64,000 nucleotides of DNA from Lytechinus pictus (GCF_037042905.1 NC_087251.1:1862001-1926000), one strand, 5' to 3'; positions 14,355-45,581 are shown, counted from the stretch's first letter. Numbers and translations: made by a program. Notes: generated by a model not told the origin, from the sequence alone.

Positions 14355-17300
14355 TCATTGATTTGTGTTTATTCTTTCCAAAAGGAATAAATGTCCCAGC
14401 TCGTCTACTGTGATGAATGAAGAAAACTGGGGATTGCACATAATTTGTTTTACACGGCTACTCAGCCGAAATCTCTGCAATAGCACCAGATTTCCTTCTT
14501 CCTCTGTTCTCCACCACTCAATATAACCATGATCCTAAAATGAGAATTATAGGGAAGGTAAAGAAATAAAGTAAGGAACCTGAATTTCAGTTTCGTAATG
14601 ACCTACTCATACAGGAGGACATGGAAGAAAATGAAATTGTTATAATCACTGAAAATGTAGGCCTAATTGAATTTTGTTGCAGAATAATTAGTTTGGTATT
14701 ATTTGTAGGTAATGTTGCAGTTTGTAGGTGATGTTAAAGTTTCTACTCCCAACTCCTTGGTTGCAGAATGGTTTAATGACATGACACAGAACGAAGAGGG
14801 CATGTTTCATTACCGTTGTCACCATCACTAATGGCATCAACATCACACATCGTCATCACCATTCAAGGAATTCATTCTTGTTGGTACCCAATAATGCCTG
14901 GGTCGAATCAGTGCGAGTATTGGTTAAGATATGTCTTATATCCCCATAATTAATTCTTAAAAGTAAAATCTGAATTCTCTTACAAAGGTTCTAACGTGTC
15001 CCGTCGTAACAAACATTGACCCATCTGATGAAACCTGGATGTTATTCACTTGAGTGTAACTCTTTCTCATGCATTTCGTCTTACCATCTCTCGCCGATCT
15101 TGCCTGCAGAAAAATGAGAATAATAATGTGATAAACTTTACTGGCCTATTCCCACTTTCTCCTTTTCATTTTTACTTTACTTTTTTTAAAACGATGACAA
15201 TGAATTGATAATAAATGGAGACTTAACGACATCCGCACCAAAAACCACAGATAAACAGGGGCTGAATCAAGATATTTTTATGGAGAAGATTTTCAACATT
15301 TTCAAGGTCCCAGGAAATAGTTGAACATAATAAAGAAAGGGAATGCAGAGCGGTAAAAAATGAAGAGAAAATTAAGGCATAAGTTAAGTTAATGGAGGTT
15401 TGATCTGTGATATGACACTGAAGGTTGATGTATCACATTTTTTAAAATCTCTTTTCCTGTACATTGTTTTTTAATTACTTTTTGTTGCATTTCCGTGTGT
15501 TATTACACGATATAATCAATGGGTTGTGGTCGGTCGCCCAATCTCATCTACGTGTCACACTGTATAGTTACCAAACTGATAATAATGTTGATACTAAACT
15601 ATATGAGTAAATAATGAAGTTATAATAGTATTCACCTTTAATATACCCCCGGTCACAGTTAATATCATGGTGGAATCCATAATAAACTTTGCAATCGTAA
15701 TAGGCATCTCGTCTGTGATACTGCTTAACTCTTGCAGGGTACTTACGTCATGAACCTAAAGTTTAAAAAGAAAGCACAAAAATACATTCCAATGAATAGC
15801 TATCCCATTTACAGTTCCAATTTATAGATATCATCTAATAGGTAAAACGCAATTGAAAACAAGTGAAAGGAGAAACAAATATATGCATATTAAACGGATG
15901 ACTTCCTTGAAGAATGACTAGTATGGATTTTATAGAATACCGTAGTTTTCACAGTACATGTATAGTAATACCGCAGGGTGTTGGTGGTTAATGATACAAT
16001 AATCTATAAGGAATAAAATTACTTTTACTCGCGTTATGTCTTTGTATCCTTCATGTTTCCTTTCATTTTTCTTTCTCCATATCTTTCGCATTGAACATTT
16101 GAATAAATACTAAGTATTATCATTATCATCATTGTTTTTACCTTAAGATGTTTCCAGCCAGCTAGTAGTAATAGTTTTCCATCTGATGAAAACTGTGCAT
16201 GGCTCACCCGACTTGCTGGACCCTGCAAGCGGGTTGGCTCTCCTTCACATAGCCTCCCATCAGACATCTATCAACAATGAATATATAAATATTTCAAATA
16301 AAAATCAGTGAAAAATTATGGATGACACGTCAAATGATGTCTGGCAATGTTTATTTATATGATAGTAAAACAAAATTGACAATAATAATATTTAGATCAT
16401 TTTCCGCCAACAAATGACATGGTCTTTGAATCTGTAATATTTTAAATATACCTTCACAGCACAACAGTATATCGAAGTATTCGAATTATAATTTATCTGT
16501 TTACACGACATGTGTACACTACATGACCCGTTTGCCATAAAATTTCCCCACTAATTTGTTCCCCTCTATTACCATTTACAAATTTGAATTCTTTCAATTC
16601 CTTTTCATATTTCTATCCGTGTTGGGGACATAGTTTGACTTCAAACATATTATATATAACTATTAAGCGATGATATAATTAATATGAATGTAACCTTGTA
16701 CAGAAAAGCAGTTCCATCAGAGCAGCCAACAACAAGATTTGTTTGATCACGTGATAAATCGGCAGAGAGACCCTGATGTGATGTCACTAGGGGACTGCTG
16801 GAAACCACTGATGGTTGTTTATCCGTTGACCTAACCTGATATTTTTTAAAGAAAAAAATATCAACATGCAATAATTAATATCTTAGTGATCAACGATTGA
16901 CTGTTTGGACTGAGTTCAATAAAGGTACACATAAGTAGTGAGAGTGAGGAAGAAAGAACGTAACCAATGTATTAAGCGGGCAACCTATTTGGAATACATT
17001 TAAAGTGAATAGTGAAAGACATATTGATGACTAGTGGTTGATGATGGATAATGCATCTCACTCGCCACCCACTGGTCATCCATTTATCATTGCCTCGTCA
17101 CCCACTGGTCATCCCTTAATCTCCCACTAGTCACCCACTGGTCATCCAGTTACCTCTCGTCATTCACTTCTCATCCATTTATATATCTCTCTCGCCACAC
17201 ACTGGTTACCCATTTATCTCTCATCACCCATTGGTCATCTATTTATCTCTCATCACCCAATGGTCATCCATTTATCTCTCGTCACCCAATGGTCATCCAT

Positions 17301-20300: not shown

Positions 20301-23300
20301 ATAATATTAAAAAGGCAAATGTAAGTACGCTATGTACCCGCAAAAATCTGTGAAGTGAAATAGCAATATGTATTCATAATCTTAAACAATACTTATCCTT
20401 GACAACGTGAAAGATAAGACATGTATGCAAAGTGGATTTCACATTATCAAAAAACGACTACCATGTTACTAGGTCTTTAGAAAAGAAATGTTCTTCTATT
20501 AAACTAAGCAAGCGGTTGTATGACTATTATTGTTATCATATTTAGTAACTATCTTACCTCAATGCATATCCCTGATCCAGTGGAGACCGTAAGAAGTTCT
20601 CGCTTAACAGTAGTCCGAGCAAGTAAAATCTTGTTTTCTGATGGCTCAAAGACTTGACAATCATTCGTCGATTTGCTACGATTTTTACCCGGTTTCGGAA
20701 GATTTATAACCTGAAGTATTCAAAGATTGTTAATAACAATTGCGATAGTTTTATATGTCACAGTCACACAAAAAAGGTACGATCAATAGTATGTCATTGA
20801 AAATAACGTATTAGCTTTGATCGGTCTAAAATGGGTTTCCTTGTGGTGACTGCGACATTGATCATAGATAAAACGAATTTTAATATAAATAATAAAGAAA
20901 CAGTACAGAAAATACAACCCCTCATTACATTGTCATCACTCTATCACCACTAACACCTAAGATGCAATAACCACACATGGTCCATTATAGGCACACAAAG
21001 TTAGTATTTTTCATTTGTCAAAAATGCTAGACATGCTTTTATACCCAGTGTTGCAGTCAAGGCTCAAACCATCAATGCCAAGGCTAGGGCTCAGGCCAAA
21101 TTTTTGAAAATGCCCAGGGCCAAGGCATGGACACCGAAGGCCAACGGCAAATCATTTGAAAATAGGCCTTAAATCGCATACAGAAAAAGGCCGAGCATCA
21201 AGGCACTACAACACTCGTCATATCGAAGGCAATGTCTTAATTAAATGAAAATTAACACTTCTACACGAAACTCTTTAATAGCACATTCAGCATTTACTCT
21301 ATTAATGATAGTGACAGATAATATTGAAATCGTATATAATCTACATGCCGTACCTGTAAGCCTTCATCTGTTACCACACCAACCTGTCCTGGTGCTTGGT
21401 TGATATCAATGTCATATATATCCACTTTCTCTCCTACCTTCACTACTTTGGTGCAGGAATCAAAGCAATTTTTCTCCTCCGAGAAATTCACCATCTTATA
21501 TAAAAAATGAATAAATAAAAATCAAGTACACATTTTCTTTGGCTATTTAAATCGAGATGGATAAATCACTAGTTTATACATAACACATGAGATTTGACAC
21601 ATTCGTCGTATAATCTGAACATGTATATAAATTATTAAGCAGATATGACTTACAGCGTAATACTTTGCGTCGCAGGAGACTGTATGAGACTGTATGGGTG
21701 ATATAGATAAACGGGTTCTAGGACAACTACCCCCTGGATAATCACCCCCGGACAACTACCCCCCGGACAATTACCCCCCCCCCGAGGACAATTACCCCCC
21801 GGACAATTACCCCCCGAGGACAATTATCCCCCCGACAATTACCCCCGGACAATTACCCCCGGACAATTACCCCCGGACAATTACCCCCCGGACAACTACC
21901 CCCGGACAACTACCCCCCCCCCCAGACAACTACCCCCCAGCCAACTACCCCCGGACAATTACCCCCCAGACAATTACCTTCAGAAAATCCCCCCTTCTCT
22001 CCAGCATCAATGTTAGAATTAAGCGGGACCCATTGTAAGTTTTGGTCGGTGGCACAGGTTTCCGAAATATTTTCTCCTTTATCTTAAGTTAATAACTTTT
22101 TTTCTTTCTCTTTTATATTGCTCTTTCTCCTGTTCTCTCACTTTCTTCTTTTTTCCTTTTTTGTTTTTGTTTAGCGGCGCCTTCTGCATCATGAAAAATG
22201 GGGGGGGGGGGGGCTTGCACTGAAACCTCCCGTTTGGCTATGCATATATACATCAGAAAATTTGTAAACTGGCCCTCATTCTAAGTTTTCATAGAACAAT
22301 TGAACACGATTAGTCATAATAATCACAAATGCTGAATATCTCTGATTCCAACTGATCTGATTTTTTTAAATATTTATTTTGGGTTTAATTTCAGGTAATA
22401 AATCAGGCAAATAGATAAAAAAGACACCTTTATAGGTAGAAATATTGAAAGTCGATAACGCAACTATCAACACTAACACTGTCAAGTAGACCACTAAATC
22501 TGTTATTTTAAAACAGTTCAACTAACAAGAAGCTAAGAATTATGAAACAATTGGTGCACATTCCAGATTAAGATGTGGCTTTATAACTTAATACAGTAAG
22601 CTAAAAAACTTTATGCAAAGATAATACACACAAGAACACCTTGTAAATTACAAGGTGTTTTTGTGTGTATTATTCTTGGGTGAAAACAATTAAACATTAA
22701 AGTAGGAAATTAAGTACCAAATTTACTAAATTGTAAACAATATGACATAATCAAATACAGTGTTTTTTCTATACAAATTGGCAATCATGATAGTATACAA
22801 TTTTTGTCTAGGGGGTAATTGTCCAGGGGGTAGTCGTCCGGGGGGTAGTTGTCCGGGGGGGGGGGGGTAATTGTCCGGGGGTAGTTGTCCGGGGGGTAAT
22901 TGTCCGGGGGGTAATTGTCCAGGGGGTAATTGTCCGGGGGGTAGTTGTCCAGGGGTAGTTGTCCGGGGGGTAATTGTCCGGGGGGTAATTGTCCCGGGGG
23001 TAGTTGTCCGGGAGAAATTGTCCGGGGGATAGTTGTCCGGGGGGTAGTTGTCCGGGGGTAATTGTCCAGGGGGTAATTGTCCGGGGGGTAATTGTCCGGG
23101 GGGTAATTATCCGGGGGTAATTGTCCGAGGGGTAATTGTCCGGGGGGTAATTATCCTCGGGGGTAATTGTCCTCGGGGGGTAGTTGTCCTCGGGGGGTAG
23201 TTGTCCTCAGGGGGTAATTGTCCGGGGGGGTAATTGTCCGGGGGGTAATTGTCCTCGGGGGTAATTGTCCGGGGGGTAGTTGTCCGGGGGGTGATTGTCC

Positions 23301-26300: not shown

Positions 26301-28770
26301 CCATTGCTGTTAGATAACTGAACGTCAAAACCTGTTGTTGTCACGATTAAACCATTACTTAAATAATCCGCATCGAGAATATCGTCTGAATGTGTTATCT
26401 CGCATTTTCTTTCTCCCGTTGATGCAGAAAATACCTGCAGATTGTGATAATAACGCATGATTTTAGATCAATCAAAACAGAGAGATAAAATCTATTTATA
26501 TTTTACAATGAACCTGAAATGGTATAAAATAGATATGTATCTCAATTTCACGAAAAGAATTGAAAAAAAAAACATAATCGTAATGGAAATAAGTTACAGC
26601 TAAACGTTTGACAGAAAAGGAATAAAAAAACTTCATCAACTTGACGTTTACAAACGACCCTACTATCAAAGTAAAAAATGCCAAATTGTATAAAAATGAC
26701 TTTATTATATAATGGCAGCACCCTTCAGTTCCGATGCTTTAGCTTATCATAAATCGAGTACATATTTTCCATGTTACAGTTGTGATTTTCAAGAAGTGTT
26801 CCATTAAGAATTTTTTTTAATCACATTCGTTTTCATAAGACCCGGGTCACGTAACACAAAGGTTAGTGATTTATCTTACACTTGATTTTCACTATTGATT
26901 GTATACTGCAGTCAACATAATCAATGCTTTTGCTTTTCAGTGGACCCCTCCATTCTTCTCATGATATATGATTATATTGATTTAATTATATTTAATTATA
27001 TTGATTATATTGATTTAAATTTGACATGCATGTTAATTTATATTTGAATCACTTATTGAATATGTATATTATTTATTCAATGTTGAATTTTGTTCATGCT
27101 TTTATTTGAATTGAATTGATTTATCATGTAATTATTTGTATTATGTTGAAGAATGAAAATAAATTGAATTGAATTGAATTGAAATGGTCAAAAAATGTTC
27201 TATGATCATTGCTAAGGTTTGTGTTACGGGCCCCAGATCATGATCCAACGGCAAACATAAAGTAAAAAAAAAACAGTTCGTTTATTTTTTACTACATGGA
27301 ACCGTTTTGATCATGATACGGTCTCATGAAAACGAATGGGTTAAAAAATCTTGTTCTTAGCTTTGTTATATTTTTTGGGCTAAAAATAGAAAATTAGTAA
27401 ATAATTATAAATGCACCATCGCAGTGTCGTCCCTCTTTGCACACGTTAAAATTGTTCCATCACTGTGACAAGCACTGCAAGAAATGATAGCCAGAGTGTG
27501 TGCTTTCACAGAGTGCTTCAATGAAAAACATCCATCATATATCTGTAAAGACAAACAAGAGAATATCGCAGTAACTTAATTATTTGTTTCACTTGAAGCT
27601 TCAATATTATTTATGCCATTAAGCAAGCAACGTCTTTTTCAAAAATTAAATTACATGTACGTTTCTGTTTCAATTTCTATTCGAATCGGAATTTGTATGT
27701 ATTTATGTATTATGGTGACCCCTTTTAATAAACATTGCTTCTCCTGGGTCTCCGAGCCATCTATGCATTTTTTCTGTTACTTTGTGAATCGTTTATTTAT
27801 CCCTTTGATGGTTGAATTAATGAATGAGTGAATGGATGAATGAATGGATGAATGAATGAATGAATAAATAAATGAATCAAATGGGTGATACACCAAGTAA
27901 AGTGATGATATACCTCGATACAACCTGAATCATCTGCTGATACTAGCATCAATTCCTTGCGGACGGAAACGAAAACACAGCAGGTAATCCTGGAATTATC
28001 CTGGTATAATTGCTTGACAAGACGTTGTGATTGGCTACAATCCTTTGTAATATTCCAGACCTTGATACATCGATCAGCTGAGCATGATGTCGCAAGGAGA
28101 GTACCATCAGGACTAACCGATAGGTCCCCGATACTGTCAGTATGAGCTGAGATTAGTAATCGAACAGCACCAGAATATCTGTCGGCGATCTTTCGTGAGG
28201 TCGTTGTAAAGAAAAAGGTTGTAACATTTTTTTAATCTCTAGGAATTAAACATCAATTTATCCCATTGTTTCATGCATTCGGTAACAAGAAAATTTTATT
28301 TATGAATACATTTTTGCAGGGGGGGGGGGCGTGCAAGAAACACAATACTCTAAAAAACGAAGAGGTAATTTAGCTCTTAAAAGAGCGTGTATAGTGACTG
28401 CACTTCGGAGTGCTGATTTTTCTAGTTCAAATTTGAACTAGAAAAATCAGCACTCCGAAGTGTTTCTTCGTTTTTTTAGAGTGTACTAAACTGGCAGTGA
28501 TCAATGTAGAAACACGTGTTTGTCTGTTATATATATATATAAGGTTATGTCGATACCTCCTTTTATATTCATACCAGTTTCTATTTCACATGAGCATTTC
28601 CCCTTGGTTTAAAATTGTTTATTTATTTGCTGTTTTTTTTTTTTACCTGCAGTCTTCCTTCATATCCAACCGATACGATTTCTTTTCCGTCTGATAGGAG
28701 TTTGGCCCGTTTTGCAGATTTACCAGTGGTCCCATGTCTAACACAATTCATCAAGGGTTGGTCATTTGTC
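14355..28770 (-). CDS. Apaf-1-like gene: WD40-repeat exons (13 exons)
   Basis: Mostly phase-0 exons of ~120-150 nt, about one blade each, e.g. AHTDSIGDLSVSPDGTLLATSCSADRCIKVWN, AHTLAIISCSACHSDGTILTC, SHQGLSADLSRDQTNLVVGCSDGT, GPASRVSHAQFSSDGKLLL, VNNIQVSSDGSMFVT, YIEWW...FITVDELGHLFLL*. Confidence 0.85.
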
Positions 28771-29164: not shown

Positions 29165-29221
<57 letters not shown>

Positions 29222-29390: not shown

Positions 29391-29437
<47 letters not shown>

Positions 29438-29516
29438 ATGGGGATGATGGTGATGATGATGATAGTGGCAGTGATGGGGATGATGATGATGATGATGGTG
29501 GTGGTGGTAGTGATGG

Positions 29517-35700: not shown

Positions 35701-38700
35701 AATAAGAAACAATTTAAAAAAAAACTATATCAACAAAGACCCCACAATATCATTGATGTAGAATAACGTTGTTATTGTTATCTTGGGTTTTAAGGTGCGT
35801 ATCATTCAGATATGAACATTTACGCCTATGATTAATTTGTCGTTTTTGTGGTATGCTTTATCACAGGGTTTTAATAGTTAAGAAGATGCTGGGGTTAAGT
35901 CTTAAGATTAAAGTTTCGCTTAATTTGTATTTTTTCTGAAAACTGGGTGTGGGGTACAGACAACACTCTAAACCCAAGCATTTAAACTGGGCTTAATTTT
36001 GAAATTTGGTCTTAGTTTTTTTTTCTCAATATTTCTTTATTTTTTAAATAACCGGGTCTAGACGTAAGACTATGCATAATACTCGTGTTATTCCACAGGA
36101 ATAAGAATATGACAAAGTCTTGTGTTTTTAAGACTGTTTGAATTATTATTTAAATGACTGGGTCTGGAATAAAGACAACACTCTAAACATGTGCTTTTCT
36201 ACATGGTCTTAATTTGGAGGATTGTTGGTTCTTAGATTCGTTGTTGGGGTTGGGTTTTATTGTTTTTTTATTCTTGAAATAACTGTGTCTGGAGGAAAGT
36301 CTACAATCGATCTTCATGTTATTCCACAGTAATTAGATTTTTGGGTATTAATTTTAGAATATTTGTAAAAACTATTTTTTTTTCAAATAATAACCAAGTC
36401 TGGAGAAAGGATGTTTGCTTTACCCATGCATTATTACAATGTTTTGAATGTTTTGTAAGGGTCTTAGTATTATTAAAAAAAAACTGGGTGCGGGGTAAAT
36501 ACATATTTTTACACCCAGTTACACCCAGTAAGGGTGTAACTTTTGAAGATTGGTCTTAGATTTGAACTGTTGAAGTTTTTTTTATTCATTTTTTTTTTAA
36601 TAACCGGGTCTGGTGAAAAGAGTACGTTTTAAAACTCGTGTTATTCCAGAAGAATAAGAATATGATATAGTCTTACGTTAGAAGATTTTTTTTTTGGTAA
36701 TTTTGTTAATGATTAGGTCTGGAATAAAGACAATGCTCTAAACCTCTAAACAGGTTCTTAGGTTGAAGGATTGTTTGGTCTTAGATTTGGAATTTTCTTA
36801 TTATTACTGTTAGCGTTATTTTGAAAAAAAAACTGGGTCTGGCTGAAAGACTATGCTATATGTCCATGTTATCCAGCATTAATAGGATTATGGGGTCTTT
36901 ATACTGTTTTTGTTGTTGTTATTTTGTTATTTATAATTTTCGAATAACAGGGTTTGGAGAAAAGACTAAGCTCGATTTTTATTTTTATTCCACTGGAATA
37001 TCATTATGGTATCTTAGTTTGGACTTATATTACAATTTTTGAAATAACTGGGTCTGGAAAAAAGACTTTGGACTTATGTTGTAATGTTTGAAAAAACCGG
37101 GTCTGGAAAAAGACTTTGGACTTATATTATAATTTTTGAAACAACCGGGTCTTGAAAAAAGACTTAATTTAGACTTATGTCATAAATATTTAATTAACCA
37201 GGTCTGGAAAAAGAATTTGCACTTTTGTGCTATATGAACGCATTACTATAAGGATGTAGTTTTTAGTTTTAAGTAACCGGGTGTGGAGAAAGACTACGTT
37301 TGATTCTCAATTTACTCTTAGCGCATATATTCACAAAACGCACCGTGTAAGTTCAAACAACAACAAAGACATTAATTCCATCAGTTTTAATTAACTGGGT
37401 CTGGAGAAAAGACTAAGCTCGATTCTCATTTTCATTCCACTGGAATATCATTATCGTATCCTAGTTTGGATTTATTTTATGTTTTTTTAAATAACCGTGT
37501 CTGGAAAAAAAAGACTTTGGACTTATATTATAATTTTTGAAACAACCAGGACTGGAAAAAAGACTTTAAATCATATTATAATTTTTGAATTAATCGGGTC
37601 TGGAAAAAAGACTTTACACTTTTGTGCTATATGAACGCATTACTATAGGATTTCAGTTTAGAACGGATTCGCCAAAAATCCCTTCAAATTTATTACATTT
37701 GTGGGTAAAGTCATTATTACATTTGTGGGCGATCAAAAATTATTACATTTGTGGGTAAAGTGTTATTACATTTGTGGGCGTTATTACATTTGTGGGTAAA
37801 GTGTTATTACATTTGTGGGCGTTATTACATTTGTGGGTGCAACACCCCCCCCCCCCCCGCCTGTCTGCCAGTGATTGAACTGGCGTTATAGAGCCATTTG
37901 AAGGTTATAAATGAAGAGCCCCTACTGCGTGGGGTCTGGGGCAAAGCCCCGGTAGCTTATTTGCATAAAATTTAGCCCCGCATTTAGCAAGCTTAAAGCA
38001 CAATGTGGTATGCAGTCCATTAGCTTTTGACTAATTACATTCTACCTTCGTTTCCCGCCATTGTTTGCAATTTTGTCATCTTTTGATCTATTTCCCACTG
38101 TGCTATTGCATTACATAGGCCTATTTCGGAATGATTTGCTCTTTCTCAGATGTTCTTCTTTCGTACATTTTCCCGCTTTCCTTCCTTTTCCATTAAAAAA
38201 AAGTTTTTTCTTCGTTTTCTTTTCACTTTTCCCTTTCCTTTTCCTCCTTTCCTTTTCCCATTTCCTTCCCCTTGCCCTTTCTTTCTCCCTCTTTTTTTTT
38301 TCTTTTTCCCGTTTTTCTTTTATTTTCCCGGTGAAATCCGCCAGGGGGGGCAACTTGCCCCCCCCCTGCCCCCCCCCCCCCCGCCTGTTACGCCACTGCT
38401 TGTCAGGCGCCTTATATAGACCACTCGGCCACGGCATCTCCTTCTATAGAGAGCGGCAGCTCCGGGTAATCAGACCCATCCCCCACTCCCATCTCGATCC
38501 GCCACTTTGATAAAAACCTGTGCATAGTTCAAATGGTGGTAGTGCCTTGAAGTAACTAAAATCTGAAGTACTATTCTACATCATCTAGGGAATGAACTAT
38601 TACATTTTGTCAGGGTTCTTACCGTTCTTTGATGAAAAACTCATTTCTTGTTTGCTGAGCTACTCTAAGCGCTCGCCTGTAAACAGTAGATGAAGGAGGG

Positions 38701-41700
38701 AGTTGTAAGGCGGTCTGGACAATGTCTCTTCTACATGATTTGAATCGACAGAGTGTAAGCAGACATCTAAACTCATTGCAGACAGTCGGAGGCTGATGTA
38801 AAATAAAGAAATAATCAAACTTCGTTATACTGCATATTATCACATGGCCTCTAATAATTGTGCTCGGTTCAAGCACACCCCAAAATCTTCAATATATTTC
38901 CCCTTCTCGGTTTACACGAAAAAAAAATCCTTGACGGTATAACCAAGACAAAAGGTTAATTGATAGATTGTGAAATTGCTTATCATCAAAGTGTAAATCG
39001 GCCATCATTTGTTTGGGATTTTTTGCATTTTAATTTAATTTATTTTAATCAACAATATTGCAAATACCATCAGTAAGAGCAGTTAAGTAGTTATGATATT
39101 ATAACAACATAAATAACTTATCCACAAACCTAAAAAAAAGCCAAACTTCTTATCCATAAGTTTCGTTAAAAAAAAATTGATCTCTATAAATCTTGTTCTT
39201 GAGAAAAGAAAGTGAACTTTCCTCAATAAATGATTTTACACAAAGCGAAAAAGGGTGCTATCGCCACACTTGGGGACCATTTTGGGTTTAAAAAACTCGA
39301 GTAGCCCCCCCCCCCCCCCACCCCACGAAAAAAAAAAGAAAATGGGTCAGGGGAGTCTGAGGGGGGTTAAGGCCCCTTACCCTGGATCAGCACCTACCCT
39401 ACGTTGACCCCTACCTTGTCCTTTGCAGCTCCTCTGGCTACTAGATGATCATGAAGAAGATCATGAATCCAATAGACTCGACATTCATCATATGTAGACC
39501 ATTCTGTCGACACCAAAGACCTCTGAGTAATACCTCTCATCCTATCTTCAACTTCTTCTTTGGAACACTCAACAAGCATCGCTAAGACCTGCATGAAAAA
39601 AAAAAATGTTTGATAATCACCAAGAATCGGTTCACTATAACGGAAACAAACAATTTATGATAAAATGCAACTTATATTCCTAAATGTTTCCATTTCTTAA
39701 TTTCCCGTTGAATGGACAATACCAACACGTAATACAAGCTACATACAACATACTTTTAAATGTTGTCTAAGTGTTCTGGGAAATCGTTAAAGAGTGCTAT
39801 AAGTGACATTCAGGGTTTCTTAAAATATCACTGTAAAAATCGTGATGAAATATTCAGAAAGAAGAAAGATATTAACATTAATACTTTACTTTATAATTTT
39901 CAATAAAAAATAATTATTAACTTCAAACATCATTAAACACAATGAAATAATAACTCACCTGACTTGAAAGTCTAATACCTTCATCAAATACGGCAAACCA
40001 AGAGTAAACTTCGATTTGAGCTTTAGTCAGTTGTTCCACACTCATTTCAATAGCATCATAGACACTACTGTATTCATAGCTGGATTCTGAGGAAAGATCC
40101 TTGAGTTTCTTGGCTTCCATCTTAGCCACATAGAACTGCCATCGATCAGGAAAGTCACGGAGGAGTGCACCTACGATGGAGATGACGAGAGGTGATCCGC
40201 AGCTGAAACCGTGGATGAGCTCAGCTTCGGGAGGAAGATCGTCTAGTGGGATACAAGTCCATTCAGATAAAGCCTTGGTAGACTGGGCTTTAGACAGACC
40301 ATGAGACAGATTCAGCTCTTCTTTATCTCCTGTGGGATAAGAACGTAGCTGAGATATTACATTGTCCTAGGAAGTATGGAGAAACTGTATTTCTAACGAA
40401 AACGGAACGTGCTAGTGTCTCACTTTACTTGAAGTGTGTTGTACAAATATGATATTCTTTGGTTTAGTAATATGTATATTCGTTTCATTTTGTTAACGTT
40501 GGGTTCATCATTTTATAAGTTTATATGATTCCTTTTATTTTTGAACCCCTCATTCTCATGAATTGATTTGTACCTTGTCACAAAACATTTTTTCTACATT
40601 CTATTTATATATGTTCTTTTCCTTTTTTATCGAGAATGTAAAAATGGACTTAATTGAATATATCGTTCAAACTCGTTTAAAAGTTTATTCCATCACACGA
40701 AATGTGTTAATTTGAGTAACACTTTTGAGAACCTGGTCACTTCTTGGCCCGTTTAGATTTAGATATTTATTCCTTAGAGCGTATCAATCTTGTGGATGTT
40801 CTGAATAATAAAATGATATCTTGATATAATGTTCGCATTGATGTTCGCAAACAATCAGGTACAATTTATTGTAACAACTATTAACAAATACCACGCATTT
40901 AGTCTTTTTACGGATACCTGGAATCTATCAACTAGTTTATCATTAAAAAAAAATCTTTTAAAAATAGGATCTGGGAGCAGGCGATCAAGAACGCTGAGAA
41001 CCTTAATAAGCAAAGGTCTCTTGTGTGGGAGAGACCTACTTATATTAACATTGGTTTTAAAGTAAAAAGCCCACAATGACTTGCCTGAAACTCGACTCAT
41101 CACACCGCTATCTCGTGTAGTAATAAGAACAGTGCTACGGACGTCAAATGCTGCCACCACATTTGGAATCCAGATGTCATCCAAGACCAAAAGAGACCTG
41201 TTACAAAACATGTAGTTTTAAATAGGGTTGGAAACTGTATCATTCATTCATGAAAATCGACAAAAATGCAAACATAAACTAGTTGCTACTAAAAAATAAA
41301 ATCATATACAAGATTCGTGTACGAAAGAAGGCGTAAGTCCCTGAAAAATAGTTTTGATGAGATTTTTCCTGTAACACGAAATACCACAAAGAAGGAAGAA
41401 GAACTGAAGGGCTCATCATTATTATTATCAAATAAAAATAGTTACGGCTAATTTTGAAAAAAAATGACAATGAGTTCGATGCTATTCTACTGCTTGTCAT
41501 TGGAAAATCTACAGGTTGTATTCCCTCTCACCTCGGATATCGTTGACTGATGAGTTTAGTTAAGAGATTCTTCCATTGTTCTGTTGTCTTTGGAGGAGAA
41601 GGAGCTGATGATAGATTACTGTCAAAGATTCGACACAATGTCTCTAGACGATCAGGAATACTAGTCTCATCCTTCACCGTACCCATAGACATCCAGAATA

Positions 41701-44700
41701 TACCGTCCGAGAAATGCTCTATTTTTTCGAAATAAGAATTTGAAAAATTAGTGATTCTCAGCACTTTATACCAAATTATATTCACATTTACTCTCGAGAA
41801 ATGGTTTCCATTAGAAAGATATGTATGTGATTTTTTTCAACAGAGTAGAGAAGAATTTTGCTGAAAATTACTGTTCATTCTCATTTTCCTTTTTGTGTAT
41901 CATGATTGCTGAGTTAAAGATTGAAATCTATGTTCACTTTCGTTCATAGTGTGTTATTGTCTATCACAATCGAGCTTTTAGTGACAAAAGTTTTGACCTT
42001 TACAATGTTTAAATCAAATTTCGTGATATATATATTGACAAACTATTCAAAGATCTGTAATATTTCGGTTGTGATTTATTATTATTATTATAATTTTTTT
42101 TTTTTGGGGGGGGGGAGGGGGGGGGGGTGGCCCCAAGCCACTGACGTAAATCCTTGCGTCACACCCATTGTACAGGGGGATGGAACACTAGATCATCTCC
42201 CCGCCTGAACAATAGGTGTGACGCAAGGATTTACGCCCAGTGCCCCAAGCTCCCCTATCTTTATGCCAGCGGTTAAAGGTGTACTCCGGGCTGAAGATAA
42301 TAATATCTCAATAAATAGAGTAAAATTCACAAAGCAAAATGCTGAAAATTTCATCAAAATCGGATAACATATAACGAAGTTATTGAATTTTAAAGACTTG
42401 CACTATTCCGGTGAAACAGTTCTAGGCATGTCCTCATAAATATTCATTAGGTGAACTGATGACGTCATATCCCCACCTGTAATTTTGTATTTTATTATAT
42501 GAAATTAGGTTTATTCATAGTTTTTCTATACTTAGAACTGAAACAGTTGGATTGACAACTGATTAAGTGCATTAGTTATTTATTGCTGCAACTCATTTCG
42601 CCATAATGGAGGCACATCATTTACACATGTATGAAAAAGGAAACAATTATGATTTCTTGTAATAATATAAGAAAAAGGAAAGTGGGGATGTGACACCATC
42701 AGCCCACCTAATGAATATTCATGACGTGCATATGACTGTTTTCACAAAATATTGCTAAATTTTAAATTCAATAACTATGTTATTTGTTATCCGATTTTGA
42801 TGAAATTTTCAGCATTTTGCTCTGTGAATTTTATTCTATATATTTAGATATATATTTTCTTTTTCAGCCCAGACTATCCCTTTAAGATGCATATAATAAA
42901 CAGGTACTTCATGAATAAGTTTTTGGTTTTTTTTTACAGTAACTGCGACTTACCTTCTACAAGTTTATCATCTCTGACAGCCTGATTAGCCAAGACTGTT
43001 TTACCCATTCCTCCCATACCATACACCACCACCCATCGGCTAGGTTTATCCGAAGAAGCAACTCTACGTAGTTTACCCCTCAGTTCAGCTAATTCTGTTG
43101 GTCTCTCTGTTAAACAGTCAGGCAAGGCAGGGACGTTGCCTTCATTCAGTTTATCTTCAACTAGAAAAATAAATAAATGACATTCATTTTTATTTCAAGT
43201 GATGAATTGTTATTAGAAAATTGTAATAAAACTAAGATTGTAAGAAGACGAATAAATGTCTAATCGATATCTATTCACAATCTGAAGGGTGCTCGTTAAC
43301 CCCATGTCAGCAAATTACACAGAAGGTATATTCATGAAGTATTATATAATGTACCCATATTTGGAATTCTAAGAATAATTTTTCCCATGTACATGAATGT
43401 TAAGTGGTAAAGTTTCAAACGATTTCTTAAAGTGATATTCAATAATGGAAGTCATTTTTACCTGATATGGTCCGTAAAGCAGCGTTGCAAAGTCCAAGTT
43501 CTGTAGTAAATGACATTGATAGATGAAATGTACTTTTAATAATTGCATTCAGCAATATCAAGCTATCATAGTAGAACATTATTCTCACGAATAGTGCATT
43601 GATGCGGCAAGACAGAATAAGACGGAAGACCGAAGCGAGGAGGCAACCAAAACTTTTTTAAATCAATATTCCGTCGAAGTTAAGTTTGATTTCATGCCGA
43701 AATACAGTACAACGTTTATTTTTTATTCATTTTTCAAAAAATCTGGTGGGTTTCCAGCCCCAATCCACACTCTACCAATGCGACCGTGTATAAAAGATTT
43801 TACAAACAACACGGAAGTAATCAATCAAATTGACTAGATCAGTAGTCAGGTGGGTGCAACTGATATGTATAGTCACATTTCTGACGGATATCCTAGTCGG
43901 AAATAACTCTTTCCTAGTAAAATACGAGAAGAAAATGGTCAAATATAAATAGAATAACAGTTGCACCCAGCTGACCAAATTCACTCGTCATTTTGACTGA
44001 TTTGTTTTGAGAGCAGGCGCGGATCTAGGAGGGGGCCGAGCCGGCCCCGCCCCCCCCCCTATTTTTTGACAACCTGCAGAAAACGTGTACTATAGGAAAA
44101 GCACTAAAGAAAAGTAGGAAAGAGGCATCATACCCAGGATGTGTAATTTACAACCTCGTAACGGCCGGCCCGACCCCGAAAGGAAACAAGAAAAGGGTGA
44201 GGGGAAGAATTGGAAAAATAACTTTATATAAAAAATTTCGCTCGCGCTTTGCGCTCGCATTGCCTGTGCCAATGAATCCCATTCAAGAGGATTAAATGAC
44301 ACTGATATATCCAGATCTGAAATCAATTTGCACACAATATTTTAGCTCGCACATCAAGCTTTAATTATTTTGTTTGTTTTACACAAATTGTTTATATCAA
44401 AATTTTCAGCTCGCGCTGCGCGCTCGCATTGTTTGATTTGTGAGTTACGTATCCTCTTTGGAAATTCTTACCAAAATTTGTCAAAATGCTCCTTTATCAT
44501 GTCAGTATATAAAAAAATTGAGCTTGTGCTTCGCGCTCGCATTTAATTGTTTGAGACACACAGCTTTTTCTGTATTTAAATAAAAACGCGCTTAGACTGT
44601 CCAGTTTTCAGGTCGGAATATCAAAAATTTTGAGCTCGCGCTTCGCACTATCATTATTTAATTGGTGATACTTGTATCCTCTTCATTAATCAATAAAAAC

Positions 44701-45581
44701 AGTCCTAATTGAGTCCCTTTTCACGTTACTATGATAAAATTTCGGCTCGCGCTTCGCGCTCGCATTGTTTAGTTGGATACTTATCTTTTTCATGATTATA
44801 AAATCTCCTCAGAATCTTCAGGTCTAAGGACATAAAATATCAAAGAATTTGAGCTCGCGCTTCGCGCTCGCATTATATACCTTATCTAGTTTATAACAAT
44901 AAAAACTAACATATACTTAAAACTTCAGTCTCTAGTTAGGACTACCCCCTGAACCCCCCCCCCCAAAAAAAAAAAAAAAAAAAATCAGATTATAGCGGCC
45001 AATCGAGAAAAATGTTGATGAAAATATTTTTCGGCCCCCCCTATTGGCGAAAGCTGGATCCGCCCCTGGAGAGTGTATGTTTCAAAGAGTAAACCGCAAT
45101 TCTAACTATTATTGTTATTGTTAATACCATATAGTCATCGCTATAGCTATGTATAAACACTCATTTGGACAATAGGCCTATAATATTTTAAAGAATACTG
45201 AAATGTAACGTGATTTCCAGCTATACCAGCCTAGATCTTTTTTCAACAGATGGTATTTGATAAGTTCTTTTCACCTGATTGCAACCAATCTGCTGCTTCT
45301 GAGTTCTTGCTGTCTCTCAGAGACTGGATAAGAATTTGTGGCTTGGCTTCATGTCCTTCCCGCCTTTTCCATTCGGTCAACATTCTATACAAACATTCCG
45401 ATATCACTCCAAGATGCGATCGTTCAATCTGAGATAGTCTGTTTTCAGTGAATCCAAGACGGATACCAAGAGGACGGTAATCATTGGGATGGAGGTGTTC
45501 AGCCAGCTCCATCATTAAGATATCACTCAAGGAGGCCCCTATGGCATGGAAACCATGAGTTGGTGGTGAAGGGGATGCCAT
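14355..45581 (-). CDS. Apaf-1-like protein, DEATH domain + NB-ARC + WD40 repeats (~21 coding exons, ~1195 aa)
   Basis: Phase-consistent exon chain: 45581-45275, 43500-43462 (optional 39 nt), 43160-42954, 41718-41532, 41197-41085, 40329-39959, 39588-39415, 38792-38623, 28770-28647, 28189-27914, 27542-27417, 26434-26166 (or -26183), 25571-25457, 23706-23578, 21494-21354, 20710-20558, 16835-16695, 16267-16142, 15755-15636, 15103-14984, 14534-14355 (TGA). Motifs: Walker A GMGGMGKT, Walker B LLVLDDIW, sensor ITTR, GSPL, IHDLL, and the Apaf-1-like C-terminus FITVDELGHLFLL. Confidence 0.9.
17060..20220. repeat. ~29-bp satellite (CTGGTCATCCATTTATCTCTCGTCACCCA) in two oppositely oriented arrays
   Basis: Forward units ~17060-17640, spacer ~17640-17770, reverse-complement units ~17770-20220, with higher-order blocks in ~17900-18750. 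Confidence 0.92.
21714..23322. mobile_element. Foldback (TU/Mutator-like) element with 15-bp (GGACAATTACCCCCC)n arms, 9-bp TSD
   Basis: AGATAAACG|GGTTCTAGGACAA ... TTGTCCTGATACC|AGCTAAACG. Arms 21714-21980 and 22810-23322 are inverted. Confidence 0.85.
24370..25480. repeat. 62-bp minisatellite, ~18 near-identical copies
   Basis: Unit AAAACATAACGTGAGTTGAGAAAGGAGCGAGTATTACCGGTGTTAGTCCACATTCTAGT(ACT/GTT); period 62 seen directly. Confidence 0.97.
26841..27236. mobile_element. MITE with short TIRs
   Basis: GGGTCACGTAACACAAAGGTTAG ... CTAAGGTTTGTGTTACGGGCCC inverted ends; AT-rich interior. Confidence 0.6.
28346..28485. repeat. Palindromic element with perfect spacerless core 28401-28462
   Basis: CACTTCGGAGTGCTGATTTTTCTAGTTCAAATTTGAACTAGAAAAATCAGCACTCCGAAGTG is self-complementary; outer ACTCTAAAAAACGAAG / CTTCGTTTTTTTAGAGT. 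Confidence 0.85.
28985..29835. repeat. Compound (GAT)n/(GGT)n microsatellite with recurring AGTGATGGG motif
   Basis: ~850 bp of GAT runs punctuated by GGTAGTGATGGG; intronic. Confidence 0.95.
30878..34872. mobile_element. ~4-kb foldback (TU/Mutator-like) element with 15-bp (GACAATTGCTCCGCC)n arms, 8-bp TSD
   Basis: GCAAAACA|GGTGACCCGACAATTGC ... GCAATTGTCATGGAACC|GCAAAACA. Arms 30878-31300 and 34516-34872 mirror each other, including variant units. Confidence 0.88.
35086..37844. mobile_element. Non-autonomous TGT...ACA DNA transposon (Ginger-like) with long repeat-containing TIRs
   Basis: CCCC|TGTTACACCCACAAATGTAAT ... ATTACATTTGTGGGTGCAACA|CCCC. About 250-300 bp of near-perfect TIR with (CCCACAAATGTAATAA)n; interior of ~56-bp TTCCAGACCCGG repeats in both orientations. 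Confidence 0.8.
38623..43160 (-). CDS. Apaf-1-like gene: NB-ARC / HD1 / WHD exons (6 exons)
   Basis: EGNVPALP...WVVVYGMGGMGKTVLANQAVRD | HFSDGIFWMSMG...LETLCR | SLLVLDDIW...VLITTRD | ...CGSPLVISIVGALLRDFPDRWQFY...SSYEYSSVYDAIEMSV | ...RSLV...YWIHDLLHDHL | ...DIVQTALQLPPSSTVYRRA; closely follows the Apaf-1 NB-ARC sequence. Confidence 0.93.
42139..42242. mobile_element. 104-bp hAT-like MITE, 8-bp TSD
   Basis: CCCCAAGC|CACTGACGTAAATCCTTGCGTCACACC ... GGTGTGACGCAAGGATTTACGCCCAGTG|CCCCAAGC. Confidence 0.85.
42277..42881. mobile_element. TTAA-flanked MITE (Kolobok-like), related to 6696-7304
   Basis: TTAA|AGGTGTACTCCGGGCTGAA ... TTCAGCCCAGACTATCCCT|TTAA. Shares CTGAAAATTTCATCAAAATCGGAT subterminal inverted repeats with the 6.7-kb element. 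Confidence 0.8.
44014..45068. mobile_element. GC-rich-TIR non-autonomous DNA element with internal GCTCGCGCTTCGCGCTCGC repeats
   Basis: CAGGCGCGGATCTAG ... CTGGATCCGCCCCTG termini, GAGAG on both flanks; ~110-120-bp periodic internal motif. Confidence 0.7.
45275..45581 (-). CDS. Apaf-1-like gene exon 1: DEATH domain
   Basis: LSDILMMELAEHLHPNDYRPLGIRLGFTENRLSQIE...ECLYRMLTEWKRREGHEAKPQILIQSLRDSKNSEAADWLQ fits the death-domain pattern (LG..LG...I...ML..W...L..L). In-frame TAA four codons upstream of the ATG; phase-1 donor G|GTGAAA. Confidence 0.85.

What the first reader, a model, noticed from the sequence alone, without database searches (positions are those of the whole stretch)
14355..45581. 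Apaf-1 paralog with a DEATH domain in place of the CARD: a candidate non-canonical apoptosome
Seen in sequence: one in-phase exon chain joins an N-terminal death domain to an intact Apaf-1-type NB-ARC (GMGGMGKT, LLVLDDIW, ITTR, GSPL, IHD) and a WD40 region ending in the Apaf-1-like FITVDELGHLFLL. Established: Apaf-1, Dark and CED-4 recruit initiator caspases through a CARD, while death domains bind other death domains (FADD, RIPK, RAIDD/CRADD, MyD88/IRAK). Inference: this protein would oligomerise like an apoptosome but signal through DD adaptors, i.e. caspase-8/-2 or NF-kB-type outputs rather than caspase-9. Its very diverged WD40 blades may sense something other than cytochrome c, making it an NLR-like sensor built on an Apaf-1 chassis. 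Apaf-1 paralogs with alternative death-fold domains have been noted in invertebrate genome surveys, so the architecture may not be wholly new; I know of no functional characterisation.
Basis: partly seen in the sequence, partly recalled or inferred. Interest (0 to 1): 0.85.

Follow-up and report, generated by a model that had tools for sequence, protein, structure and literature searches.

The report
Sea urchin death-domain Apaf-1 paralog
This is a real, already annotated sea urchin gene for an Apaf-1-like cell-death sensor that carries a death domain where Apaf-1 has a CARD, an arrangement first reported in sea urchins in 2006 and still without any functional study.

Summary
On the minus strand, 21 exons (ATG 45581, stop 14357-14355) translate letter for letter into a 1210-aa NCBI protein, LOC129265618 of Lytechinus pictus.

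- **Domains:** Pfam gives Death (E 1.6e-11), NB-ARC (1.1e-28), the Apaf-1-type winged helix and WD40, and no CARD. A fold search of the N-terminal model ranks death domains first, with the first CARD at rank 32.
- **No hidden CARD exon:** an RNA-like contig reads from the ATG up to 45614, across an in-frame TAA. This argues against an upstream coding CARD exon.
- **Relatives:** orthologs exist in Strongylocentrotus (81% identity) and Diadema. L. pictus also has a second DD paralog on contig C3 and a canonical CARD Apaf-1 on C9.
- **Origin:** the tree puts both DD paralogs as sisters inside echinoderm Apaf-1, but an AU test does not reject an older origin.
- **Novelty:** the architecture is in print. 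Zmasek 2007 credits Robertson 2006 for the sea urchin case. I found no functional work.
- **Mechanism:** the proposed apoptosome-like wheel that recruits DD partners is inference only.

Verdict: correct rediscovery of a known architecture, low novelty, moderate residual interest.

The parts
45582..45614 (-). 5' UTR part of the first coding exon. The acceptor cag lies at 45617-45615 and an in-frame TAA at 45593-45591.
   Evidence: Contig X2 record 13 fits 45472-45614 and then runs on unlike the window. The ORF opens right after the stop.
45275..45581 (-). Exon 1 coding part: ATG and death domain (aa 1-102)
   Evidence: Death PF00531 E 1.6e-11. Contig X2 record 12 stops fitting at 45275.
43462..43500 (-). 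Exon 2, 39 nt linker (aa 103-115)
   Evidence: exact match to P0001, AG/GT flanks
42954..43160 (-). Exon 3: start of NB-ARC, Walker A GMGGMGKT
   Evidence: Contig X1 record 3 fits 43011-43160 and stops at the acceptor.
41532..41718 (-). Exon 4 (NB-ARC)
   Evidence: Contig X1 record 2 fits 41530-41718.
41085..41197 (-). Exon 5: Walker B LLVLDDIW, sensor-1 LITTR. The donor is GC, not GT.
39959..40329 (-). Exon 6: HD1 with GSPL
39415..39588 (-). Exon 7: winged-helix domain with IHD
   Evidence: The joint to exon 8 is seen in contigs of X1 and X2.
38623..38792 (-). Exon 8: helical linker (HD2-like)
   Evidence: Joint 38792->39415, CT..AC on the + strand.
28647..28770 (-). Exon 9
27914..28189 (-). 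Exon 10: best WD40 repeat (E 6.9e-11 for the ORF)
27417..27542 (-). Exon 11 (WD40)
26183..26434 (-). Exon 12
25457..25633 (-). Exon 13. Its last ~24 nt and its donor form the first unit of a 62-bp minisatellite.
23578..23706 (-). Exon 14
21354..21494 (-). Exon 15
20558..20710 (-). Exon 16
16695..16835 (-). Exon 17
16142..16267 (-). Exon 18
15636..15755 (-). Exon 19
14984..15103 (-). Exon 20
14355..14534 (-). Exon 21: C-terminus FITVDELGHLFLL and the TGA stop (14357-14355)

Best explanation
**Shown.** The region is the complete coding sequence of Lytechinus pictus LOC129265618. It is a conserved echinoid gene for a 1210-aa STAND ATPase of the Apaf-1 family with this layout:
- death domain (aa ~20-102)
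- short linker
- NB-ARC nucleotide-binding domain with intact Walker A, Walker B, sensor-1, GxP and xHD motifs
- Apaf-1-type winged helix
- a short helical linker
- about 665 aa of WD40 repeats

It is one of two death-domain Apaf-1 paralogs in this genome. The other is on contig C3, and a canonical CARD-Apaf-1 lies on C9.

**Inferred, by analogy with Apaf-1, Dark and CED-4.**
1. At rest the WD40 region and bound nucleotide hold the protein as a closed monomer.
2. An unknown ligand on the propellers, plus nucleotide exchange, opens it.
3. The NB-ARC domains assemble into a ring.
4. This brings the N-terminal death domains together above the hub. Clustered death domains then nucleate a homotypic death-domain assembly, as in the PIDDosome, instead of the CARD disk that binds caspase-9.

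**Most likely output.** Recruitment of a death-domain adaptor that links to a caspase. The genome encodes a CRADD-like CARD+Death adaptor that could bridge to CARD caspases.

**My odds.** About 0.95 for identity and architecture, about 0.45 for the recruitment mechanism, and no more than 0.15 for any named partner.
For: **Gene model and domains**
- Exact 21-exon map to an NCBI protein.
- Pfam gives Death, NB-ARC, APAF-1-like WHD and WD40, each above its cut-off, on the whole protein.
- The ATPase motifs sit at the same relative places as in canonical Apaf-1s of urchin, amphioxus, zebrafish and a mammal.

**The N-terminus is a death domain**
- Of 17 PDB sequences matched at E <= 10, 16 are death-domain proteins (RIPK1, TNFR1, CRADD, FADD, PIDD, ankyrin). 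One is an unrelated WhiG, and none is a CARD.
- The AF2 model has mean pLDDT 81.5 and six helices.
- In the Foldseek listing every row above rank 32 is a death domain, with TM 0.58-0.76 normalised to the query. The first CARD (chain 5wve_Y) is at rank 32 with E 0.4.

**Conservation**
- The Strongylocentrotus ortholog is also 1210 aa, 81% identical overall, and 92% in NBD-HD1 against 75-76% in the WD regions.
- Diadema has an ortholog at 53% identity.
- The paralog B orthologs all list Death.

**Duplicate of Apaf-1**
- The exon ends of the NOD fall at aa 118, 184, 243, 281, 405 and 465 in canonical-Apaf-1 numbering. Canonical exon breaks on C9 lie at ~114-119, 183/184, 244, 282, 406 and ~463-481.
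- In the ML tree the two DD paralogs are sisters (100/100). They sit inside an echinoderm Apaf-1 group (94/97), inside Ambulacraria (87/80).

**Apaf-1-like body**
- The AF2 model of paralog B isoform P0119 has mean pLDDT 75.2 and 60 beta strands, which I count as 15 four-stranded blades.
- Its best PDB matches are full-length murine Apaf-1 (3shf, 3sfz, E ~1e-43) and the human apoptosome.

**RNA-like contigs**
- Runs X1 and X2 each show the exon 7-8 joint.
- Contigs stop fitting at the exon borders 45275, 45614, 43160 and 41718/41530.
- Depth is 0 in the intron bins 40256-41083 and 45638-46879.

**Candidate adaptor**
- A CARD ORF (E 3.7e-12) and a Death ORF (E 3.5e-14) lie about 0.6 kb apart on C3 at ~23.9 Mb.
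Against: - No experiment on this protein or its orthologs was found. Searches were. The library lacks most subscription journals.
- The exon 1-2-3 joint itself was not displayed. It is inferred from contigs that stop at the borders and from the database model.
- The two raw RNA-seq runs laid (X19, X20, about 6% of each read) gave almost no reads on the exons.
- X1 and X2 are only guessed to be RNA.
- The 15-blade model is of paralog B, not of the window's protein. The window's WD regions are 29-37% identical to B.
- No caspase exon lies near any listed Death exon in this genome (both lists are lower bounds). So a direct death-domain caspase partner is not in sight.
- The nearest death domains in the genome after paralog B belong to a cluster on C4, at 32-40% identity. 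At least two of 13 listed members sit next to a NACHT exon. This fits an immune-type output as well as a caspase output.
Confidence: 0.6

Rival explanations
1. It is an NLR-like immune sensor rather than a caspase activator. The Apaf-1 body senses a microbial or danger signal, and the death domain feeds the same death-domain adaptor pathway as the urchin Death-NACHT-LRR receptors. The output is NF-kB-type or other non-caspase signalling.
For: After paralog B (49% identity), the closest death-domain exons in the genome are a cluster on contig C4 (about 23.85-26.1 Mb) at 32-40% identity. In the two loci I opened, the Death exon is followed by a NACHT exon (NACHT E 9.7e-21 for L007). Death-NACHT-LRR is a known sea urchin NLR branch (Zhang et al. 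2010, PMC2858798, passages read). The WD regions evolve faster than the NOD: 75-76% against 92% identity between Lytechinus and Strongylocentrotus.
Against: An identity of 32-40% between death domains does not show a shared partner. The NOD is of Apaf-1 type, not NACHT type. There is a single ortholog per species in each of the two paralog lines, not an expanded family. That is unlike typical invertebrate immune receptor families.
Confidence: 0.25
2. It is a modulator of the canonical apoptosome. It co-assembles with CARD-Apaf-1 through the related NOD and changes or poisons caspase recruitment, rather than forming its own platform.
For: The NOD shares 44% identity and all ATPase motifs with the canonical urchin Apaf-1.
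Against: The stem leading to the DD clade is long, 1.3 changes per column. The WHD (31-32%) and HD2-like (13-15%) parts are much diverged from the canonical urchin Apaf-1s. Mixed rings therefore seem unlikely. There is no direct evidence either way.
Confidence: 0.08
3. It is a gene-model artefact. The death-domain exon belongs to another transcript and is joined to the Apaf-1-like exons only by prediction.
For: The exon 1-2-3 joint was not directly displayed in the reads laid. The protein is an automatic prediction.
Against: - The same Death + NB-ARC + WD40 protein is predicted in Lytechinus, Strongylocentrotus and Diadema for paralog A. It is also predicted in L. pictus, L. variegatus and S. 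purpuratus for paralog B.
- The Lytechinus and Strongylocentrotus proteins have the same length, 1210 aa.
- In paralog B the Death exon again lies about 2.9 kb upstream of the P-loop exon on the same strand.
- Contigs stop exactly at the exon-1 donor and the exon-3 acceptor.
- No other gene lies between 45.6 and 50.9 kb on the minus strand.
Confidence: 0.03

Closest known systems
Sea urchin death-domain Apaf-1-like proteins (Robertson et al. 2006, Dev Biol 300:321, as cited by Zmasek et al. 2007, PMC2246300)
   Same: The architecture is the same, Death - NB-ARC - WD40. The window's protein is the ortholog (81% identity, same length) of a Strongylocentrotus purpuratus protein that NCBI names 'apoptotic protease-activating factor 1 isoform X1'. 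I found two such paralogs in L. pictus.
   Different: Only the species differs. The 2006 paper is not held, so I know it through Zmasek's sentence. From memory only, its abstract speaks of at least two such proteins.
Apaf-1 (vertebrate; structures 3sfz, 3shf, 5juy)
   Same: It shares the NB-ARC with all ATPase motifs, the Apaf-1-type winged helix and a C-terminal WD40 region. Intron positions in the NOD are shared with the urchin canonical Apaf-1. The paralog B model matches full-length Apaf-1 best.
   Different: The N-terminus is a death domain, not a CARD. The helical linker after the WHD is about 80 aa and is poorly conserved. The activating ligand is unknown.
PIDDosome (PIDD death domain - RAIDD/CRADD - caspase-2; structure 2of5)
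   Same: It offers a model for how clustered death domains can lead to a CARD caspase through a CARD+Death adaptor. RAIDD and PIDD death domains are among the best sequence and fold matches. A CRADD-like gene exists in this genome.
   Different: PIDD has no NB-ARC ring. No binding between this death domain and the CRADD-like one has been shown.
Sea urchin Death-NACHT-LRR receptors (NLRs)
   Same: They are STAND NTPases with an N-terminal death domain. Their death-domain exons are the closest in the genome after paralog B.
   Different: They have a NACHT rather than an NB-ARC NTPase and belong to a large clustered family. The window's gene has a single ortholog per species.
Amphioxus and Nematostella Apaf-1 homologs with other N-terminal domains (DD, DED, TIR, double CARD; Zmasek 2007, Zhang 2008)
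   Same: The theme is the same: swapping the recruitment domain on an Apaf-1 chassis.
   Different: No amphioxus death-domain form came up among the 150 best NOD relatives. The swaps are therefore probably independent.

Membership tests
Apaf-1/CED-4 family (NB-ARC STAND ATPases of animals) | NB-ARC domain above the Pfam threshold | tested here: met
   PF00931 E 1.1e-28, 100.7 bits against a cut-off of 23.5, aa 141-383
Apaf-1/CED-4 family (NB-ARC STAND ATPases of animals) | Intact Walker A, Walker B, sensor-1 (TTR), GxP and xHD motifs | tested here: met
   GMGGMGKT 163, LLVLDDIW 249, LITTR 271, GSPL 329, IHD 449. The same set is found in canonical Apaf-1s. The motif names are from my knowledge of the family.
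Apaf-1/CED-4 family (NB-ARC STAND ATPases of animals) | Apaf-1-type winged-helix domain after the NB-ARC | tested here: met
   PF21296 E 1.1e-6, 29.1 bits against a cut-off of 27, on the whole protein. The exon ORF alone is below the cut-off at 22.1 bits.
Apaf-1/CED-4 family (NB-ARC STAND ATPases of animals) | NOD groups with animal Apaf-1s in a tree | tested here: met
   The protein falls inside the 34 animal rows, which are split from two bacterial NB-ARC rows at 97/96. The exact place inside is unsure: AU p 0.293 for an older origin.
Apaf-1/CED-4 family (NB-ARC STAND ATPases of animals) | N-terminal CARD that recruits a CARD caspase | tested here: not met
   No CARD family at E <= 1 on exon 1. 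No CARD hit in the window at E <= 10 in the six-frame genome scan. Death domain instead.
Apaf-1/CED-4 family (NB-ARC STAND ATPases of animals) | Two C-terminal WD40 propellers (7 + 8 blades in Apaf-1) | tested here: inconclusive
   WD40 and propeller families match aa 531-740 and 952-1194 of the window's protein. Sixty strands (15 blades by my count) were seen only in the model of paralog B. A fold of the window's own WD region was not made.
Apaf-1/CED-4 family (NB-ARC STAND ATPases of animals) | Nucleotide- and ligand-dependent assembly into a ring that activates a caspase | not testable with these tools
   Needs biochemistry or cryo-EM
Death domain (DD subfamily of the death fold) | Pfam Death above threshold, and not CARD, DED or PYD | tested here: met
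   PF00531 at 44.6 bits against a cut-off of 22.6. It was the only family listed for exon 1 at E <= 1.
Death domain (DD subfamily of the death fold) | Six-helix bundle closest to solved death domains | tested here: met
   Six helices, pLDDT 81.5. Every Foldseek row listed above rank 32 is a death domain, and the first CARD is at rank 32. All E-values are above 0.001.
Death domain (DD subfamily of the death fold) | Homotypic binding to another death domain | not tested
It needs pull-down or two-hybrid work.
Echinoid DD-Apaf orthogroup A | Full-length orthologs with the same architecture in other urchins | tested here: met
   S. purpuratus P0002 is 81% identical over 100% of the query. Diadema P0003 is 53% identical over 99%. 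Both list PF00531 and PF00931.

The most novel reading that the evidence does not exclude
The two echinoid DD-Apaf paralogs form apoptosome-like rings whose death-domain crown seeds a PIDDosome- or Myddosome-like helical death-domain tower. In this reading they share one death-domain adaptor with the large Death-NACHT-LRR receptor family. Sea urchins would then have rewired both their Apaf-1-type and their NLR-type sensors onto a common death-domain hub, using a ligand that is not cytochrome c. Such a fusion of two kinds of signalling platform has not been seen in any solved complex I know of (my own knowledge).
Probability: 0.2. Interest if true: 0.6.

Novelty: already known. Interest (0 to 1): 0.3.

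Why it matters
Apaf-1 is the textbook example of a cell-death platform that works through a CARD. A conserved natural version with a death domain shows that the recruitment module can be swapped while the ATPase engine is kept. It raises a testable question: what does a ring of death domains recruit?

The architecture has been in print since 2006 and the gene is annotated, so the finding adds no new kind of system.
- an exact 21-exon model
- a contig that reads across an in-frame stop upstream of the ATG, arguing against an upstream coding exon
- the second paralog and the canonical gene located in the same genome
- intron positions shared with canonical Apaf-1
- a candidate CRADD-like adaptor
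- the observation that the closest death domains belong to Death-NACHT genes

The function remains open and could be studied in this species.

Tried and rejected
- **Complex prediction.** I paired the window's death domain with the death domain of the CRADD-like gene (L011). The tool returned 'no answer', score 0.02 against a mark of 0.34, and controls were not run. This is no evidence either way.
- **RNA holders.** No listed holder is on record as RNA. X1-X4 are only guessed to be RNA. The raw RNA-seq runs X19 and X20 (about 6% of each read) gave next to no reads on the exons. I draw no conclusion on expression level.
- **Death-domain caspase.** I compared 28 Peptidase_C14 matches with 75 Death matches in the genome. 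No pair lies on the same contig within 300 kb. Both lists are lower bounds, so this does not exclude one.
- **Date of the CARD-to-death-domain swap.**
  - The ML tree favours an origin inside echinoderms.
  - The AU test does not reject a tree with the DD lineage outside all sampled animal CARD Apaf-1s. The log-likelihood is 4.52 lower and p is 0.293.
  - A second, narrower test returned exactly the same numbers and may have reused the first test's saved state. I count it as one test.
- **Fold of the window's own WD40 region.** I used the stored paralog B isoform P0119 instead. That result speaks for the family, not directly for this protein.
- **Robertson et al. 2006.** The paper is not held. 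Its content is taken from Zmasek's citation and from my memory of the abstract. Zmasek's Additional data file 2 (sequence list) was not opened.
- **Pfam on three ORFs of the upstream + strand gene.** No hit at E <= 0.001. My reading of them as cytochrome P450 exons is by eye only.
- **Earlier findings of this scan.** None exist for this genome.

Full report
**1. What is there**

A stop-to-stop ORF list of 14000-46500 showed a chain of minus-strand ORFs. They carry a death-domain-like N-terminus, P-loop, Walker B, GSPL and IHD pieces, and WD40-like pieces.

Pfam on 13 of these ORFs gave:
- Death (PF00531, E 1.6e-11, 44.6 bits, cut-off 22.6) for the first ORF, and no CARD family at E <= 1
- NB-ARC for three ORFs
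- APAF-1-like_WHD for one ORF (below cut-off on its own)
- WD40 at E <= 0.01 for two ORFs (a third ORF had only a weak row, E 0.15)

The exon-1 translation is 100% identical to the start of P0001, NCBI 'uncharacterized protein LOC129265618 [Lytechinus pictus]', 1210 aa. It is 85% identical to P0002, 'apoptotic protease-activating factor 1 isoform X1 [Strongylocentrotus purpuratus]', also 1210 aa.

P0001 maps exactly onto the minus strand:
- 21 exons, from the ATG at 45581 to the TGA at 14357-14355
- 19 GT-AG introns and one GC-AG intron (intron 5)
- a CDS of 3633 nt

A 39-nt exon (43500-43462) sits between the death-domain exon and the P-loop exon.

On the whole protein, Pfam gives NB-ARC 1.1e-28, Death 3.1e-10, APAF-1-like_WHD 1.1e-6 and WD40 2e-15. 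The named motifs are all present: GMGGMGKT 163, LLVLDDIW 249, LITTR 271, GSPL 329 and IHD 449. They match the pattern in canonical Apaf-1s of urchin, amphioxus, zebrafish and a mammal.

**2. Death domain or CARD?**

Three independent checks agree.
- **Pfam:** Death only.
- **phmmer against PDB sequences:** 17 matches at E <= 10. Sixteen are death-domain proteins (RIPK1, TNFR1, CRADD, FADD, PIDD, ankyrin), one is an unrelated WhiG, and none is a CARD. The best E-values are about 0.003-0.006, so these are weak matches taken singly.
- **Structure:**
  - An AlphaFold2 model built from a seven-row alignment has mean pLDDT 81.5 and six helices.
  - In Foldseek against the PDB, every row listed above rank 32 is a death domain (TNFR1, RAIDD, PIDD, FADD, ankyrin, RIPK1, TRADD, DR3 and others), with TM 0.58-0.76.
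  - The first CARD (chain 5wve_Y of the Apaf-1-caspase-9 holoenzyme entry) comes at rank 32 with E 0.4.
  - No match reaches E <= 0.001.

**3. Is a CARD exon hidden upstream?**

- A six-frame scan of the whole genome with Pfam CARD gave 15 matches at E <= 10. None lies in the window, and the nearest on the same contig is about 1.7 Mb away. The scan scores only the best candidates.
- Between the ATG and a divergent + strand gene that starts near 50.9 kb, there are only retroelement pieces and short ORFs.
- Contig X2 record 13 fits 45472-45614 without a break and then leaves the window at an acceptor (cag, 45617-45615). So in that transcript the stretch upstream of the ATG is exonic.
- That stretch holds an in-frame TAA at 45593-45591. 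Any upstream exon joined there would be untranslated leader, not a CARD.
- This rests on one contig of depth 4.4 in a run that is only guessed to be RNA.

**4. RNA evidence**

No indexed run is on record as RNA. Runs X1 and X2 hold 0.19 and 0.17 of the sampled words of a stretch whose exons make up about a fifth. When laid they show:
- depth on exons
- depth 0 in the intron bins 40256-41083 and 45638-46879
- high depth only at repeats

Both runs carry the exon 7-8 joint (38792->39415; CT..AC on the + strand is GT..AG on the minus strand). Contigs stop fitting at 45275 (exon-1 donor), 43160 (exon-3 acceptor) and 41718/41530 (exon 4).

The exon 1-2-3 joint itself was not listed, because the table was cut. 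Raw RNA-seq runs X19 and X20 (about 6% of each read) gave almost nothing on the exons.

The DD-to-NOD junction therefore rests on three things: these border-exact contigs, the database model, and its conservation in other urchins.

**5. Relatives and origin**

*Closest proteins.* The word-based search with P0001 found 115 proteins at E <= 1e-5.
- The five best list PF00531: L. pictus, S. purpuratus (81%), two Diadema antillarum proteins (53%, 51%), and a second S. purpuratus protein at 39%.
- The Pfam lists of many later rows are cut off in the output, so I give no count.

*Paralog B.* The second S. purpuratus protein has an ortholog in the window's own genome on contig C3 (49.156-49.178 Mb), with exon-wise identity mostly between about 50% and 92%. 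The Death exon is again a single exon upstream of the P-loop exon. NCBI names it LOC129255526.

*Canonical Apaf-1.* This gene lies on contig C9. A CARD match at 17649460-17649588 sits next to NB-ARC matches at 17646989-17648905.

*Exhaustive HMMER search.* A search with the NOD (aa 116-466) found 4240 proteins at E <= 0.001 and 37 at E <= 1e-30. I classified the 150 listed with narrow HMMs of my own:

| Class | Count |
|---|---|
| Death domain | 1 |
| CARD | 43 |
| At least 60 aa of N-terminal room but neither domain | 66 |
| No N-terminal room | 40 |

Of 14 N-termini of the nearest non-DD relatives that I gave to Pfam, 13 score as CARD above the cut-off. One scores only as CARD_2, below the cut-off. 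These relatives carry source names such as Apaf-1-like of Diadema, Branchiostoma, a hemichordate, lamprey, sea cucumber, a nemertean and sponges.

*Tree.* I built a careful ML tree of 36 NODs, chosen by me from the hits and rooted on two bacterial NB-ARC rows.
- DD-A and DD-B are sisters (100/100) on a long stem of 1.3 changes per column.
- They sit inside an echinoderm group (94/97, not starred), inside Ambulacraria (87/80) and a deuterostome group (93/86).
- The AU test does not reject a tree with the DD lineage outside all sampled animal CARD Apaf-1s (log-likelihood 4.52 lower, p 0.293).
- A second test gave identical numbers and may not be independent.

*Shared introns.* The NOD exon ends of the window's gene correspond to aa 118, 184, 243, 281, 405 and 465 of the canonical urchin protein. 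The canonical exon breaks on C9 fall at ~114-119, 183/184, 244, 282, 406 and ~463-481. The canonical gene has one extra intron near aa 345.

My reading is a DNA-level duplicate of Apaf-1 in which the 5' CARD exons were replaced by a Death exon plus a mini-exon. This happened once, before the A/B duplication and before Diadema split from the other urchins. The origin was probably within echinoderms, but the date is not settled.

**6. Where the death domain may have come from, and whom it may meet**

After paralog B (49%), the nearest death-domain exons in the genome are a cluster on contig C4 at 32-40% identity. In the two loci I opened, the Death exon (E 3.3e-9 for L007) is followed by a large NACHT exon (E 9.7e-21). 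This is the Death-NACHT type described for sea urchin NLRs (Zhang et al. 2010, PMC2858798, passages read).

The genome also has a CRADD-like gene, with a CARD ORF and a Death ORF about 0.6 kb apart on C3. No caspase exon lies near a listed Death exon (lower bounds).

**7. The body of the protein**

Between Lytechinus and Strongylocentrotus the domains are conserved as follows:

| Region | Identity to S. purpuratus ortholog |
|---|---|
| Death domain | 85% |
| NBD-HD1 | 92% |
| WHD | 91% |
| Helical linker | 77% |
| WD regions | 75-76% |

Against the canonical urchin Apaf-1, the NBD-HD1 is 44% identical and the WD regions 21-23%.

I could not fold the window's own WD region. The model of paralog B isoform P0119 (1001 aa, 21-row alignment, mean pLDDT 75.2) has 60 strands after the helical part, which I count as 15 four-stranded blades. 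Its best PDB matches are full-length murine Apaf-1 (3shf and 3sfz, E about 1e-43, over 1100 aligned columns) and the human apoptosome.

**8. How it most likely works**

*Shown:* a conserved Death-NOD-WD40 protein of the Apaf-1 family with an intact ATPase site.

*Inferred from Apaf-1, Dark and CED-4 (established knowledge):*
1. The monomer is autoinhibited.
2. Ligand on the propellers and nucleotide exchange open it.
3. The NB-ARC domains form a ring.
4. The N-terminal domains cluster.

With a death domain, the clustered crown would seed a homotypic death-domain assembly, as in the PIDDosome, rather than a CARD disk. A CARD+Death adaptor could then bring in a CARD caspase. The alternative is an NLR-like output through whichever adaptor serves the Death-NACHT receptors.

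Canonical starfish Apaf-1 seems not to need cytochrome c (Tamura et al. 2018, PMC5785508, passages read). So 'not cytochrome c' is likely but is not special to this paralog.

**9. Novelty**

Zmasek et al. [quoted passage not shown] Reference 18 is Robertson et al. 2006, which is not held. From memory, its abstract mentions at least two Apaf-1-like proteins linked to a death domain, which fits the two paralogs found here.

Four full-text searches found no functional study of these proteins. The library lacks most subscription journals.

**Verdict.** This is a correct rediscovery of a known, annotated architecture. The open question is its function.

Noticed in passing
window 24367-25480 (intron 13, minus-strand gene): A 62-bp minisatellite of 18 copies at 96% matches. 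Its first unit is the last ~24 nt of exon 13 plus the splice donor (…CTAACACCG|gtaatact). The donor site is therefore repeated about 18 times downstream of the one used in the annotated model.
   Followed up: partly
window 41085 (donor of intron 5): This is the only non-GT donor in the gene (GC-AG intron, gcaagt).
   Followed up: no
window 28771-38622 (intron 8, 9.85 kb): The intron contains an ATG/ATC trinucleotide array (28988-29834, about 281 copies). It also has two arrays of a 15-bp unit in opposite orientation (30884-31285 and 34528-34864), and two arrays of a ~49-bp unit in opposite orientation (35327-35625 and 37018-37224). These could be foldback or transposon ends.
   Followed up: no
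window 17061-17585 and 17912-20056 (intron 16): Long arrays of a 29-bp unit in opposite orientations. They give long open frames in several phases and strong GC skew.
   Followed up: no
window 21721-21978 and 22804-23315: Arrays of a 15-bp unit (GGACAATTACCCCC and its complement) in opposite orientation, in introns 14 and 15.
   Followed up: no
window 46224-47312 (+), 63089-64000 (-); also 52862-53437 (-) and 8766-9173 (-): Reverse-transcriptase fragments of retroelements. RVT_1 scores E 2.2e-15 and 1.1e-12 for the first two. The other two look similar by eye but gave no Pfam hit.
   Followed up: partly
window 42.3-43.1 kb, 44.4-44.8 kb and 46.9-47.7 kb: Very high summed depth in runs X1 and X2, and many reads in the raw RNA runs with loose ends at 47252-47254 and 47672-47676. 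These look like copies of abundant, transcribed repeats rather than parts of the gene.
   Followed up: no
window 5590-5862 (-): An ORF with a Radial_spoke (PF04712) match, E 6.2e-9. It is probably an exon of a radial spoke head gene downstream of the Apaf-1-like gene.
   Followed up: partly
window ~50.9-62.2 kb (+): A divergently oriented gene whose ORFs look like cytochrome P450 exons by eye: a membrane anchor followed by FPGP at 50874-51200, and an FNPDRF motif at 61843-62163. Pfam gave no hit at E <= 0.001 on three of the ORFs.
   Followed up: partly
G000 C3:49156440-49177895 (+); locus L010: The second death-domain Apaf-1 paralog of L. pictus (LOC129255526, P0271, 1231 aa). Its death domain is 45-49% identical to the window's.
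   Followed up: partly
G000 C9:~17645559-17649588 (-); loci L001, L006, L009: The canonical CARD-NB-ARC Apaf-1 gene of L. pictus. Its intron positions in the NOD match those of the window's gene, plus one extra intron near aa 345.
   Followed up: partly
G000 C4:~23.85-26.12 Mb; loci L007, L008: A cluster of at least 13 death-domain exons. In the two I opened, each is followed by a NACHT exon, which is the Death-NACHT receptor type.
   Followed up: partly
G000 C3:23908098-23909487 (+); locus L011: A CRADD/RAIDD-like two-exon gene: CARD (E 3.7e-12) then Death (E 3.5e-14).
   Followed up: partly
G000 C9:7090498, C9:6451119, C15:16826299; loci L002-L004: Three further NB-ARC matches inside long uninterrupted frames of 533-575 aa. 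They are unlike the multi-exon Apaf-1 genes, and I did not examine them.
   Followed up: no
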